Origin: a virus
Taxonomy: Duplodnaviria; Heunggongvirae; Uroviricota; Caudoviricetes
IMG/VR virus record: IMGVR_UViG_3300045988_147489
Location: 20,848 to 84,847 of that record
DNA length: 64,000 bases
Reading direction: 5' to 3' (one strand)
Of this stretch, positions 61,386 to 64,000 are shown piece after piece (positions within the stretch are counted from its first letter, which is position 1; each line of letters starts with the position of its first letter). The notes under the pieces were generated by a model that worked only from the letters and a program-made list of their open reading frames with translations, did no database searches and was not told where the DNA came from. A program made the position numbers and the translations under genes.

Positions 61386-61574
61386 AAAAGACTTGAACGA
61401 GGCCAGACGGTGATGTTTCACAAGCCCTACCCGCCACAAGGAAATCCCGTAGCGTTTTATCTTGGAAGGTTAACCAGAAAAGGCGTATTGAGGCGCAGAT
61501 CCTTCCCGGCGCATACGGAGTTCAGATTGAAAGAAGGTCAAAAGCTAACACACGGTATCAAAGGTGTTATATGA
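61386..61574 (+). CDS. small basic hypothetical protein
   Basis: 63-aa ORF between the nuclease and ATPase genes. Confidence 0.25.
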   Translation, partial: KRLERGQTVMFHKPYPPQGNPVAFYLGRLTRKGVLRRRSFPAHTEFRLKEGQKLTHGIKGVI

Positions 61575-63121
61575 AGTTTTTAAAGCTCCAGGTTGAGAAT
61601 TTTATGGCTATCGCCAGCGCGGAGGTCGAGTTAGATCAGCGTGGTTTAGTGCTCATTCAGGGTGTTAATAGTGATGATAGTTCCGCATCAAGTAATGGCT
61701 CTGGAAAGTCAACGCTAATGAATAGCCTGATGTGGTGTCTTTATGGCGAAACAGCTCATGGTGTGAAGGGTGACGATGTGTTGTCTACCGACCATGAAAA
61801 GAACTGTCGTGTTGCAGTAACCATCGAGGATGAAGGCAAGAGATATGCGATCATTCGTCACCGTAAACACAAAGAGTTCAAAAATCGGCTTATCGTTCGT
61901 GGTGAAGACGGCGATATGACGAAAGGCAAAGATGCGCTGACGCAAGAGTTCGTCGAGCGTCTGATCGGTGCATCTAAAGAGGTTTTCATGGCTTCCATCT
62001 ATGCGAGCCAAGAAGCTATGCCAGATTTACCTGGAATGTCCGACAAAAACCTCAAAACCATCGTAGAAGAAGCCGCTGGCGTTGACAGACTGACACGCGC
62101 CTACGCTATTGCTCGTGAGCGAGCTAATGCAGCTGCCGCACGTATGGATGTGGTTAAAACCAAATTGGAGTCGACAATCTCGACCATTGAGGCAACACAG
62201 TCAGAAATTGAGTCAGCGAAAGCCTCCTCTGAATCATGGGAGCAAGAGCGTTCTAAACGTTATGACGATGCCCTGGCTGGGCTGGCCAGTGCCGAAGTTG
62301 AGTTAACGGAAGTTGAACTTGAGATCCGCACTCTTCCCGAACAGATCCGTGATACCGAGAAGGCAATCGAAAGTGAGCGCAAAAAGTTAGCCTCAAAAGA
62401 AGAACATGACGCCAAGTTGCTCAAAGTTCGTGGTGCGATAACTGATATTCGGGCAAGCATCAAAGCTACAGAAAATAGTCAGGCTGATGCAATGAACCGC
62501 GCGCGTAATTTTAAGACTAAAGCAGAAGAGGTTGGTACTAAAGTGGGATCACCATGCCCTACTTGTGGCAAAGCCTACTGCGAAGAAGATCTATCAACGG
62601 TGAAGGAGAATTTCATTGAACAAGCACGTCAGGAAATTGGTCAGGCGAAGACACTTGCAGAGGCAATGGCTAAACACAAAACGAATCTTGAGAAAGCGTT
62701 AAGCATTGAGTCTGCCCTTGTTAAAACGACACCTGATGTAACGGCTATCATTGCCCGGATTGAAGAGCTTACGAAACAACTCTCATCTTTGCGTCATCGT
62801 GAGAAGGAGGTTGTTGCTATTGAGTCTCTTGTGACTCGTGCTCGTACTGAGGTCGATCGTATATCAAAAGAGATTAATCCGTTTATTGCTCTTATCGCCA
62901 GACACGAAGATAACCTGGTATCCAGTAAGTCTACCTTCAAGTCCTTAAAAGATGAGTTGAAGGCTATTCAGGAACAAACGTTGCTATTGGAAAAAGCTCG
63001 TCAGGTCTACTCTCCTGCCGGGGTGCGTTCTCATATTTTGACGTCTGTTACGCCTTTCCTGAATACACGCACTGCCGAGTATCTCAATACGTTGTCTGAC
63101 GGGAATATTACTGCTGAGTGA
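61571..63121 (+). pseudogene. SbcC/Rad50-like ATPase truncated by IS insertion (N-terminal ATPase head, coiled coil, zinc hook present; C-terminal ATPase half missing)
   Basis: Walker A NGSGKSTLMNSL; CPTCGK zinc-hook-like CxxC mid-protein; ORF stops at the TGA formed by the first bases of the IS (63119-63121); no signature motif, Walker B or D-loop before the stop. Confidence 0.6.
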
Positions 63122-63190
63122 AGTGGTTTACTGAATTTGGCCACCTGAACAGAGGTGATATGCTCACCTCAGAACAACACAGGTGCCATA

Positions 63191-63493
63191 ATGAAAAAAA
63201 GAAATTTCAGCGCAGAGTTTAAACGCGAATCCGCTCAACTGGTCGTTGACCAGAATTACACCGTGGCAGATGCAGCCAGCGCTATGGATGTCGGCCTTTC
63301 CACAATGACGCGATGGGTGAAACAATTACGTGATGAGCGGCAGGGAAAAACACCAAAAGCCTCCCCCATTACCCCGGAACAAATTGAAATCCGTGAGCTC
63401 AGGAAAAAGCTACAACGTATTGAAATGGAAAATGAAATATTAAAAAAGGCTACCGCGCTCTTGATGTCAGACTCCCTGAACAGTTCTCGATAA
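63191..63493 (+). CDS. IS3-family transposase OrfA (HTH protein)
   Basis: [21 protein letters not shown]... matches the IS911 OrfA sequence as I remember it; 100 aa. Confidence 0.85.
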
Positions 63494-64000
63494 TCGGGAA
63501 ACTCAGGGCGCGTTATCCTGTGGCCACTCTCTGCCATGTGTTCGGGGTCCATCGCAGCAGCTACAAATACTGGAAAAACCGTCCTGAAAAGCCAGACGGC
63601 AGACGGGCTGTATTACGCAGCCAGGTACTTGAACTGCATGGCATCAGCCACGGCTCTGCCGGAGCAAGAAGCATCGCCACAATGGCAACCCAGAGAGGCT
63701 ACCAGATGGGGCGCTGGCTTGCTGGCAGACTCATGAAAGAGCTGGGGCTGGTCAGCTGTCAGCAGCCGACTTACCGGTATAAACGTGGTGGTCATGAACA
63801 TGTTGCTATCCCTAACTACCTTGAACGGCAGTTCGCCGTGACCGAGCCAAATCAGGTGTGGTGCGGTGATGTGACCTATATCTGGACGGGTAAGCGCTGG
63901 GCGTACCTCGCCGTTGTTCTCGACCTGTTCGCAAGAAAACCAGTGGGCTGGGCCATGTCGTTCTCGCCGGACAGCAGGCTTACCATGAAAGCACTGGAAA
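63446..64000 (+). CDS. IS3-family transposase OrfB (DDE catalytic domain), partial, expressed by -1 frameshift from OrfA
   Basis: -1 frame open to window end; slippery heptamer A AAA AAG at 63442-63448; translation includes [27 protein letters not shown]. Confidence 0.8.

What the first reader, a model, noticed from the sequence alone, without database searches (positions are those of the whole stretch)
61571..64000. IS3-family (IS911-like) element inserted into the SbcC/Rad50-like ATPase gene
The SbcC-like ORF has an N-terminal Walker A head, coiled coil and CxxC zinc hook, then stops at a TGA formed by the first bases of the IS left end (63119-63121). The C-terminal ATPase half is therefore expected downstream of the IS, outside this window. 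The SbcD-like partner upstream is intact. The insertion likely inactivates the phage's SbcCD-type nuclease and marks recent mobile-element activity.
Basis: partly seen in the sequence, partly recalled or inferred. Interest (0 to 1): 0.55.

Follow-up and report, generated by a model that had tools for sequence, protein, structure and literature searches.

The report
ISEc52 insertion truncating phage-plasmid sbcC
A common E. coli jumping gene (ISEc52, a close relative of IS911) has landed in the Rad50/SbcC-like DNA-repair ATPase gene of an SSU5-type phage-plasmid and cut off the part needed for ATP hydrolysis; this is a real but ordinary gene knock-out.

Summary
Window 61571-63121 encodes a 516-aa SbcC/Rad50-like protein. 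Its uninterrupted homologue in hundreds of near-identical E. coli SSU5-like phage-plasmids is 638 aa. Homology to the intact gene stops at 63120. From 63119 to 64000 the sequence is 100% identical to an ISEc52 copy (IS3 family) and 95.2% identical to IS911. The stop codon TGA is the first triplet of the IS. The lost 122 residues carry the LSGGE signature, Walker B, D-loop and H-loop, so the ATPase should be dead. The SbcD-like partner gene is intact.

The window ends exactly where the source metagenome contig ends (ENA ERZ773266 NODE_121, 85,776 bp), 882 bases into the 1,250-bp IS. The right IS end, the target duplication and the 3' remainder of sbcC therefore cannot be recovered. No collection searched holds this junction.

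Relatives show both simple IS insertions and IS-linked deletions in the same gene, so a downstream C-terminal fragment is likely but unproven.

Breakpoints from at least seven different IS elements in relatives seem to crowd into the last third of sbcC. This is suggestive only and unexplained.

Verdict: real, recent, ordinary. Low interest.

The parts
60256..61341 (+). Intact SbcD/Mre11-like metallophosphoesterase gene (361 aa)
   Evidence: Pfam Metallophos E 8.3e-10. PHROG 100 'SbcD-like subunit' E 2.4e-92. Same length and sequence as WP_000174804.1 in intact relatives.
61296..61574 (+). Small ORF (92 aa, GTG start) overlapping the end of sbcD and the start of sbcC
   Evidence: Listed. RefSeq annotates a hypothetical protein at the same position in relatives. 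No Pfam hit. Function unknown.
61571..63118 (+). Truncated SbcC/Rad50-like ATPase gene, codons 1-516 of 638: N-lobe with Walker A (61697-61714), coiled-coil region with CPTC hook (62555-62566), and the start of the C-lobe
63118..63119 (.). Insertion point, after sbcC nt 1548. The predicted 3-bp target duplication would be GAG (63116-63118).
   Evidence: Alignment with intact genes. IS ends defined from complete copies that have 3-bp duplications. The duplication itself is not observable here.
63119..64000 (+). Left 882 bp of a 1250-bp ISEc52 (IS3 family, IS911-like). Cut off by the end of the source contig.
   Evidence: 100% identical to L004 1512-2393. 95.2% identical to IS911 of Sf6. The contig ends at this position.
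63119..63154 (+). Left terminal inverted repeat (TGAAGTGGTTTACTGAATTTGGCCACC...). Its first triplet, TGA, is the stop codon of the truncated ORF.
63191..63493 (+). orfA (100 aa, HTH_Tnp_1)
   Evidence: Pfam PF01527 E 6.1e-14. NCBIfam transpos_IS3 positions 1-85.
63442..63448 (+). A AAA AAG slippery heptamer for the -1 frameshift that yields the OrfAB transposase
   Evidence: The heptamer is among the most efficient -1 frameshift motifs tested in the IS911 context (PMC4066793).
63436..63999 (+). orfB reading frame (-1 relative to orfA), open for 188 codons to the end of the window. It contains HTH_21 and the start of the rve/DDE domain (first Asp codon at 63868).
   Evidence: (transpos_IS3 E 3e-50, profile 87-265 of 369).

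Best explanation
The host element is an SSU5-type phage-plasmid of E. coli. It is about 99-100% identical across this locus to about 190 PLSDB plasmids of mostly about 100-115 kb, and 99.1-99.9% identical to phages Cyrano, CMS-2020a and PhiR41_1. A copy of ISEc52 transposed into its sbcC/rad50-like gene between window positions 63118 and 63119. IS3-family elements move by copy-out-paste-in, using an OrfAB transposase made by a -1 frameshift at A AAA AAG. The insertion ends translation after residue 516, at the TGA that begins the IS. The product keeps Walker A, the coiled coil and the CxxC hook. It lacks the signature motif (LSGGE, residue 548), Walker B (DLFIGDE, 577), the D-loop (585) and the H-loop (ISH, 613). 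In Rad50/SbcC proteins the N- and C-terminal globular halves fold back on each other to form one ABC ATPase head. The truncated protein therefore cannot hydrolyse ATP, and the SbcCD-type nuclease is expected to be non-functional even though SbcD is intact. Genes downstream in the operon probably suffer polarity. Shown here: the junction, the identity of the IS, the truncation point and the lost motifs. Inferred: loss of activity, polarity, and that this is a simple insertion whose right end, GAG duplication and 3' sbcC remainder lie on another contig. I give the core claim about 0.95 and the simple-insertion sub-claim about 0.6.
For: The junction is at the exact first base of the IS. The intact homologue is 638 aa in relatives. 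It is intact in 69/80 IMG/VR loci, and 221/234 complete-genome E. coli plasmids cover at least 80% of the 3' tile. Family assignments come from PHROG 77/100, Pfam AAA_23 / SMC_N / SbcC_Walker_B, and NCBIfam Rad50/sbcc partial hits. The C-lobe aligns to T. maritima Rad50 3qf7 across residues 457-617, which places the break inside the lobe. Rad50 head architecture is described in PMC7752040. IS anatomy is shown. The same 516-aa product is on 4 contigs. A 119-aa ORF starting at the first ATG after the break (MDVTKK...) exists as a separately called gene on 19 public contigs, including ENA and JGI sources. pSCMY1 shows a simple IS3-family insertion, with a 3-bp duplication and both halves retained, 215 nt upstream in the same gene.
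Against: The right IS end, the target duplication and the 3' remainder are not in the window and could not be found. The contig stops inside the IS. The junction is absent from the plasmid, E. coli, phage, IMG/VR, GTDB and JGI collections. In relatives, 4 of 5 resolved IS events in this gene carry a deletion or rearrangement on the downstream side. The contig is 85.8 kb, against about 107-115 kb for most relatives, which is compatible with a missing 24 kb. No activity was measured.
Confidence: 0.85

Rival explanations
1. The insertion was followed by an IS-mediated adjacent deletion or rearrangement, or came with one. In this reading the 3' end of sbcC, and perhaps about 24 kb of downstream nucleotide-metabolism genes, are gone or moved, and the element is a shrinking derivative of the phage-plasmid rather than a phage-plasmid with one knocked-out gene.
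For: Seven E. albertii plasmids of 62-64 kb have an IS911-type element 37 bp upstream in the same orientation, and its right end joins a helicase-like gene instead of sbcC. In p504211_100, IS100 joins sbcC to a truncated methylase gene. In the AH02/AH04 plasmids, IS903B joins it to foreign hsdR DNA. In MS 145-7, ISEc23 joins it to foreign DNA in a 198-kb plasmid. The source contig is about 24 kb shorter than typical relatives. None of the 29 kb that follows sbcC in a reference plasmid occurs elsewhere in the window.
Against: A simple insertion is the primary product of transposition. A deletion needs a second event, and this insertion looks very young: the IS is identical to other copies and the allele is unique. 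At 6.8x coverage a short-read metagenome contig can break for many reasons. The other contig end falls, by collinearity, near host-like apbC/metG genes that could themselves break an assembly. That placement is an inference.
Confidence: 0.3
2. The junction is an assembly chimera: the phage-plasmid gene is intact and the assembler joined it to an IS from elsewhere in the metagenome.
For: Coverage is low (cov 6.76 in the contig name). Chimeric contigs do exist in such data: IMG/VR locus L082 joins this same gene at codon 158 to sequence that I recognise from memory, untested, as human LINE-1-like.
Against: The break falls on the exact terminal nucleotide of the IS inverted repeat. The two sequences share only TG there, far too little for a k-mer misjoin. 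Four contigs carry the identical truncated product.
Confidence: 0.03
3. The gene is split but still works. The 516-aa N-terminal piece and a separately translated C-terminal piece (for example the 119-aa ORF from the first ATG after the break) reassemble into an active head.
For: From my own knowledge, not checked here: Rad50 catalytic domains have been reconstituted from separately expressed N- and C-terminal segments. An in-frame ATG lies 4 codons after the break. The 119-aa ORF is called as a gene in public assemblies.
Against: The break is inside the C-lobe rather than at the coiled-coil boundary. The C-terminal piece would need a promoter and ribosome-binding site reading out of the IS, and none was shown. 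Whether the piece is present at all is unknown.
Confidence: 0.03

Closest known systems
ISEc52 / IS911 (IS3 family)
   Same: Identical over all 882 bases present to a 1250-bp copy that RefSeq labels 'IS3-like element ISEc52 family', and 95.2% identical to the annotated IS911 of phage Sf6. It has the same TGAAGTGG terminus, orfA/orfB layout and A AAA AAG frameshift site.
   Different: Nothing distinguishes it apart from being a partial view. The right 368 bp, the right inverted repeat and the target duplication are outside the contig. The sequence 5' of the slippery site reads GGAA here, where the IS911-type copy in E. albertii reads GGAG.
IS911 disrupting gene 54 (ninG-like endonuclease) of Shigella phage Sf6
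   Same: An IS911-family element sits inside a DNA-metabolism nuclease gene of a temperate phage, with a 3-bp duplication (GTT).
   Different: The phage, the gene and the IS isoform all differ. In Sf6 both junctions are visible.
SbcCD of E. coli / Mre11-Rad50 / phage homologues such as T4 gp46-gp47
   Same: An adjacent metallophosphoesterase gene plus an SMC-like ABC ATPase gene with Walker A, a coiled coil with a CxxC hook and, in intact relatives, signature, Walker B, D-loop and H-loop motifs. PHROG 77 and 100 are named SbcC-like and SbcD-like subunits. Phage homologues have short coiled coils (PMC7752040), which fits the 638-aa size.
   Different: It scores far below the NCBIfam cut-offs for bacterial SbcC or archaeal Rad50 (75-92 bits against cut-offs of 478-847). 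It is a distinct phage clade and not an orthologue of host SbcC. No biochemical data exist for this clade as far as I could find.
pSCMY1 (NZ_CP122519.1) sbcC::IS629/IS1203-like
   Same: Same phage-plasmid lineage and same gene. An IS3-family element sits after sbcC nt about 1333, with both gene halves and a 3-bp duplication (GAC) present.
   Different: A different IS and a different site (215 nt upstream), and both ends are resolved.

Membership tests
IS3 family (IS911/ISEc52 type) | Terminal inverted repeats beginning 5'-TG | tested here: met
   The left end TGAAGTGG... at 63119 is identical to complete copies whose ends are TGAAGTGG...CCACTTCA. Only the left repeat is visible in the window.
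IS3 family (IS911/ISEc52 type) | orfA (HTH) and orfB (DDE) in frames 0 and -1, linked by a slippery heptamer | tested here: met
   orfA at 63191-63493 matches HTH_Tnp_1. A AAA AAG lies at 63442-63448. The -1 frame is open from 63436 to 63999 and matches transpos_IS3 (E 3e-50) and the start of rve.
IS3 family (IS911/ISEc52 type) | Complete DDE catalytic domain | tested here: inconclusive
   Only profile positions 2-56 of 102 of rve fall inside the window. The rest lies beyond the contig end.
IS3 family (IS911/ISEc52 type) | Right inverted repeat and a 3-4 bp target-site duplication | not testable with these tools
   The contig ends at IS base 882. The predicted right junction was absent from the JGI metagenome and GTDB genome collections; the other collections were searched with the left junction only.
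SbcC/Rad50 ABC ATPase | N-terminal Walker A | tested here: met
   GSGKST at residues 43-48. AAA_23 E 5.2e-17.
SbcC/Rad50 ABC ATPase | Central coiled coil with a CxxC zinc hook | tested here: met
   CPTC at residues 329-332. The coiled coil itself was not predicted with a dedicated tool. It is inferred from the full-length PHROG 77 alignment and from the gap between the two Rad50 head alignments.
SbcC/Rad50 ABC ATPase | C-terminal signature motif, Walker B, D-loop and H-loop | tested here: not met
   Absent from the window copy, which stops at residue 516. Present in intact relatives at residues 548, 577, 585 and 613. The window carries a disrupted member of the family.
SbcC/Rad50 ABC ATPase | Adjacent Mre11/SbcD-type phosphoesterase partner | tested here: met
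   60256-61341: Metallophos and PHROG 100.
Lamassu defence system (LmuB SMC ATPase + LmuA effector) | LmuB-type ATPase next to an LmuA effector | tested here: not met
   The intact ATPase hits one LmuB model at E 5.5e-23, against E 4.5e-165 for PHROG 77. The neighbouring phosphoesterase has no PADLOC hit. The surrounding genes are replication and recombination genes: gp32-like, 5'-3' exonuclease, RecA-like, NrdAB.

The most novel reading that the evidence does not exclude
The 3' third of this phage-plasmid sbcC gene (about nt 1320-1600 of 1917) may be a hot spot, or a selectively tolerated zone, for mobile-element insertion and rearrangement. Independent breakpoints from IS903B, IS100 (twice), an IS629/IS1203-like element, an IS911-type element, ISEc52 (this window) and ISEc23, plus one endpoint of an in-frame sbcD::sbcC deletion, all fall there. 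When sbcD is left intact in a resolved record, SbcC nearly always keeps at least 440 residues (the exceptions seen are the deletion in L054/L084 and two contig-edge breaks at codon 29). This could mean that early truncations with SbcD present are counter-selected, or that the DNA in this stretch attracts transposition. Either way, loss of the nuclease would be a recurrent step in these phage-plasmids.
Probability: 0.2. Interest if true: 0.4.

Novelty: already known. Interest (0 to 1): 0.15.

Why it matters
By itself it matters little. It is one more IS knock-out in a mobile element, and gain or loss of IS elements among SSU5-group phage-plasmids has already been described (bioRxiv 10.1101/2025.09.12.675607). 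It is useful as annotation: the 516-aa ORF should be labelled a pseudogene fragment and not a short SbcC. The element probably lacks its recombination nuclease, which may impair lytic growth if the nuclease plays the role that T4 gp46/47 plays (my inference). The broader pattern seen in relatives is repeated, independent IS-linked damage to the same gene, often with large deletions. It fits the idea that phage-plasmids decay into plain plasmids through IS activity. If confirmed, it would point to a specific early casualty in that decay.

Tried and rejected
1. I searched for the source or any sibling carrying the junction. The left junction was searched in PLSDB, complete E. coli genomes, INPHARED phages, IMG/VR, GTDB genomes and JGI metagenomes. 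The predicted right junction (CCACTTCA-GAG-TGGTCGACG) was searched in JGI metagenomes and GTDB genomes. All were negative.

2. The exact-protein look-up found the source contig but only up to its end inside the IS. Three sibling contigs are not shown, and by the tool's ordering they cannot extend further.

3. I predicted the C-terminal ORFs that a gene caller would make after a 2-5 bp duplication.

4. The C-terminal homology search instead turned up P0001, which proved to be an unrelated sbcD::sbcC deletion fusion.

5. I tested whether the IS chose a site resembling its own inverted repeat, as I recall being described for IS911 (my own knowledge). The site scores 8 against the right-repeat tip, while the best sites in the window score 11 and many others equal or exceed it. 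Rejected.

6. Flank similarity between independent ISEc52 insertions (TTACTGCTG.. before the IS both here and in fliD of strain AB66) was not pursued. Those hits were ranked by coverage, which selects for chance flank matches.

7. Rfam found nothing in 60000-64000 at E <= 0.1.

8. GC content across sbcD-sbcC shows no distinctive feature at the breakpoint cluster (0.425-0.48, against 0.43-0.51 elsewhere).

9. The Lamassu reading of the ATPase was rejected.
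Full report
**What is in the window**

The + strand carries a 361-aa metallophosphoesterase ORF (60256-61341), a short overlapping ORF (61296-61574) and a 516-aa ORF (61571-63121). The 516-aa product matches Pfam AAA_23 (E 5.2e-17). It has a Walker A box (GSGKST, 61697-61714) and a CPTC motif (62555-62566). Immediately after it comes TGAAGTGGTTTACTGAATTTGGCCACC..., followed by three IS features:
- a 100-aa HTH_Tnp_1 ORF (63191-63493);
- an A AAA AAG heptamer (63442-63448);
- a -1 frame that stays open to the last base of the window and matches NCBIfam transpos_IS3 (E 3e-50) and the start of the rve domain.

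**Is the ORF really interrupted?**

Yes. Megablast of 60200-63118 finds 462 PLSDB plasmids, 136 of them at 99% identity or more. Most are non-mobilizable E. coli plasmids of about 100-115 kb. It also finds the phage records CMS-2020a, Cyrano and PhiR41_1, and at 75.8% identity Salmonella phage SSU5.

In these records the gene is 1917 nt and encodes 638 aa. The window copy differs by one third-position SNP over the shared 1548 nt. A three-way alignment is identical through window 63120 and unrelated from 63121 on.

**Identity of the inserted element**

Window 63119-64000 is 882/882 identical to a 1250-bp element in the chromosome of E. coli AB66. That copy interrupts fliD with a GTT duplication, and RefSeq labels it 'IS3-like element ISEc52 family'. 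The window stretch is also 840/882 (95.2%) identical to the annotated IS911 of phage Sf6, which likewise starts TGAAGTGG and is flanked by GTT.

The IS therefore begins at 63119, and its first triplet is the ORF's stop codon. The insertion point is 63118|63119, after sbcC nt 1548 (codon 516). A 3-bp duplication, if made, would be GAG.

**What the gene is**

The intact protein matches PHROG 77 ('SbcC-like subunit of palindrome specific endonuclease', E 4.5e-165, full length). Its neighbour matches PHROG 100 ('SbcD-like subunit', E 2.4e-92).

NCBIfam gives only sub-threshold partial hits to Rad50 and sbcc models. This is a phage clade of the family and not an orthologue of host SbcC.

A PADLOC LmuB model hits at E 5.5e-23, but the partner has no defence-system hit. 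The neighbourhood is a replication and recombination module with gp32-like, 5'-3' exonuclease, RecA-like, Rep, NrdAB and ThyA genes. I therefore reject a Lamassu reading.

Cyrano, one of the near-identical relatives, is an SSU5-like phage-plasmid of E. coli LF82 that produces virions (PMC9928086).

**Consequence of the truncation**

The intact protein has LSGGE at residue 548, DLFIGDE at 577, DDALD at 585 and ISH at 613. All four lie in the 122 residues lost.

Alignment with T. maritima Rad50 (3qf7) covers residues 5-150 and 457-617. This places the break inside the C-terminal lobe of the head. Rad50/SbcC heads are formed by the Walker A half and the Walker B half folding together around the hook (PMC7752040). 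A product lacking the second half should therefore be ATPase-dead.

This conclusion is an inference from family knowledge; no activity was measured. SbcD is untouched.

**Why the sequence cannot be extended**

An exact-sequence look-up of the 516-aa product returns ENA ERZ773266 NODE_121_length_85776_cov_6.76. The last 12,430 bases of that contig equal the last 12,430 bases of the window.

The window therefore ends at the contig end, at base 882 of the 1250-bp IS. This is the usual way a short-read assembly stops in a repeat. Three further contigs carry the same product but are not shown. Because the tool lists the place with the most flanking DNA first, none of them should extend further.

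Neither the left junction nor the predicted right junction occurs in any collection I could scan. None of the 29 kb that follows sbcC in a reference plasmid is present elsewhere in the window.

A 119-aa ORF beginning at the first ATG after the break is a separately called gene on 19 public contigs, including ENA and JGI sources.

**Is the junction an artefact?**

This is very unlikely. The change of sequence coincides with the exact terminal base of the IS inverted repeat. The two sequences share only TG at that point, which is not enough for a k-mer misjoin. Four contigs carry the allele.

Chimeras do occur in such data. IMG/VR locus L082 joins this gene at codon 158 to what looks, from memory and untested, like human LINE-1 sequence.

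**What relatives show**

The gene is usually intact:
- 69 of 80 IMG/VR loci anchored on SbcD have a full-length copy.
- The pair is conserved at about 76% nucleotide identity in plasmids from Salmonella, Enterobacter, Citrobacter and Yersinia pestis.

It has nevertheless been hit repeatedly and independently:

| Event | Position in sbcC | Record(s) | Downstream state |
|---|---|---|---|
| IS903B | nt 1320 | AH02/AH04-type plasmids | foreign hsdR DNA follows |
| IS100 | about nt 1325 | L033 | contig ends in the IS |
| IS629/IS1203-like | about nt 1333 | pSCMY1 | simple insertion, GAC duplication, both halves kept |
| IS100 | about nt 1434 | p504211_100 | deletion to a methylase gene |
| IS911-type | nt 1511 | seven E. 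albertii plasmids of 62-64 kb | right IS end joins a helicase-like gene |
| In-frame 2.67-kb deletion | endpoint nt 1524 | seven contigs | fuses SbcD residues 1-55 to SbcC residues 509-638 |
| ISEc23 | nt 1596 | MS 145-7 | foreign DNA follows in a 198-kb plasmid |
| IS3 | about nt 1825 | L025 | contig ends in the IS |
| IS91-family | nt 382 | pSCU-306-2 | sbcD absent |
| Larger deletions | from nt 39, or whole locus | L054/L084, CP133922 | sbcC or both genes lost |

Two conclusions follow:
1. A simple insertion is not the only outcome in this lineage, so the rival 'IS plus deletion' deserves about 0.3.
2. The breakpoints look crowded into nt 1320-1600.

**How solid is the crowding?**

I tiled the locus with 1000-nt queries against 5,426 complete E. 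coli genomes. For each tile I counted records that match but have less than 80% coverage in one place:

| Tile | Records matched but covered < 80% | Note |
|---|---|---|
| sbcD 1-1000 | 4 | |
| sbcD 601 to sbcC 285 | 0 | |
| sbcC -114 to 885 | about 3 | after discounting 26 partial alignments of a divergent lineage |
| sbcC 486-1485 | 3 | at least one is a record-start wrap |
| sbcC 918-1917 | 13 | |

Much of the excess is clonal. The same IS903B and IS100 plasmids recur in several strains. Counting independent events from all sources, roughly 9 of about 21 breakpoints fall in 600 nt, which is 18.6% of the locus. The binomial P is about 0.009 with the region chosen after the fact. For IS insertions alone, 8 of 9 lie in the last 31% of sbcC (P about 6e-4).

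Sampling was incomplete, because only 'spread' rows and capped locus lists were available, and contig-edge breaks are of unknown cause. Base composition shows nothing special in the crowded stretch. I record the pattern as suggestive and unexplained.

**Target choice**

The site does not resemble the IS's own inverted repeat more than many other places in the window do.

**Verdict**

The finding is correct and well observed. It is a recent ISEc52 (IS911-like) insertion that truncates, and by inference inactivates, the SbcC-like ATPase of an SSU5-type phage-plasmid. It is an ordinary event of a known kind.

The one open point is whether the 3' remainder follows the IS. The available sequence cannot settle this, because the contig ends inside the IS.

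Noticed in passing
window 64000 (= last base of ENA ERZ773266 NODE_121_length_85776_cov_6.76): The window ends exactly at the end of its source contig, 882 bases into a 1250-bp IS. The sequence therefore cannot be extended, and the 85.8-kb contig is about 24 kb shorter than typical relatives.
   Followed up: yes
relatives: L012, L013, L014, L015, L003, L016, L020, L025, L033, L039 (sbcC nt 382-1825): The same sbcC gene has been hit independently by at least seven different IS elements: IS903B, IS100 (twice), an IS629/IS1203-like element, an IS911-type element, ISEc23, IS3 and an IS91-family element. Most breakpoints lie in nt 1320-1600, close to the window's site at nt 1548. The crowding is statistically suggestive but incompletely sampled and unexplained.
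   Followed up: partly
L007 10001-10555; L008; L009 (protein P0001): Seven public contigs carry an in-frame 2.67-kb deletion that fuses SbcD residues 1-55 to SbcC residues 509-638. The deletion runs between short similar sequences (ATGTTGGTTG / ACGTTGTCTG). Its sbcC endpoint is 24 nt upstream of the window's IS.
   Followed up: partly
L003 5183-6345 (E. albertii p2014C-4015-1 and six similar plasmids): These 62-64 kb E. albertii plasmids are shrunken derivatives of the same phage-plasmid. A decayed 1163-bp IS911-type element sits 37 bp upstream of the window's site in the same orientation, and its right end is joined to a helicase-like gene.
   Followed up: partly
L082 6789 onward (IMGVR_UViG_3300028607_001517): This IMG/VR contig joins sbcC codon 158 to sequence that looks like human LINE-1 ORF2 (recognised from memory, not tested). 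It is probably a chimeric metagenome assembly sitting in a viral database.
   Followed up: no
window 61296-61574 (+): A 92-aa ORF overlaps both the end of sbcD and the start of sbcC. RefSeq annotates a hypothetical protein at the same position in relatives (WP_001348682.1 in one of them). It has no Pfam hit, and its conservation and function were not examined.
   Followed up: no
L010 25836-29001 (NZ_CP019013.1 38835-42126): Intact relatives carry host-like apbC and metG (methionyl-tRNA synthetase) genes. These lie about where the other end of the source contig would fall if the contig is collinear with the reference, so they could be an assembly breakpoint.
   Followed up: no
window 63108-63118 versus L004 1501-1511: Two independent ISEc52 insertions (this one and the one in fliD of strain AB66) are both preceded by TTACTGCTG plus two bases. 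This may hint at a target preference. However, the hit list was ranked by coverage, which favours such chance flank matches.
   Followed up: no
window 63426-63430: Upstream of the A AAA AAG slippery site, this ISEc52 reads GGAA where the IS911-type copy in E. albertii reads GGAG. GGAG is the Shine-Dalgarno-like frameshift stimulator described for IS911 (PMC4066793). Any effect on transposase level is unknown.
   Followed up: no
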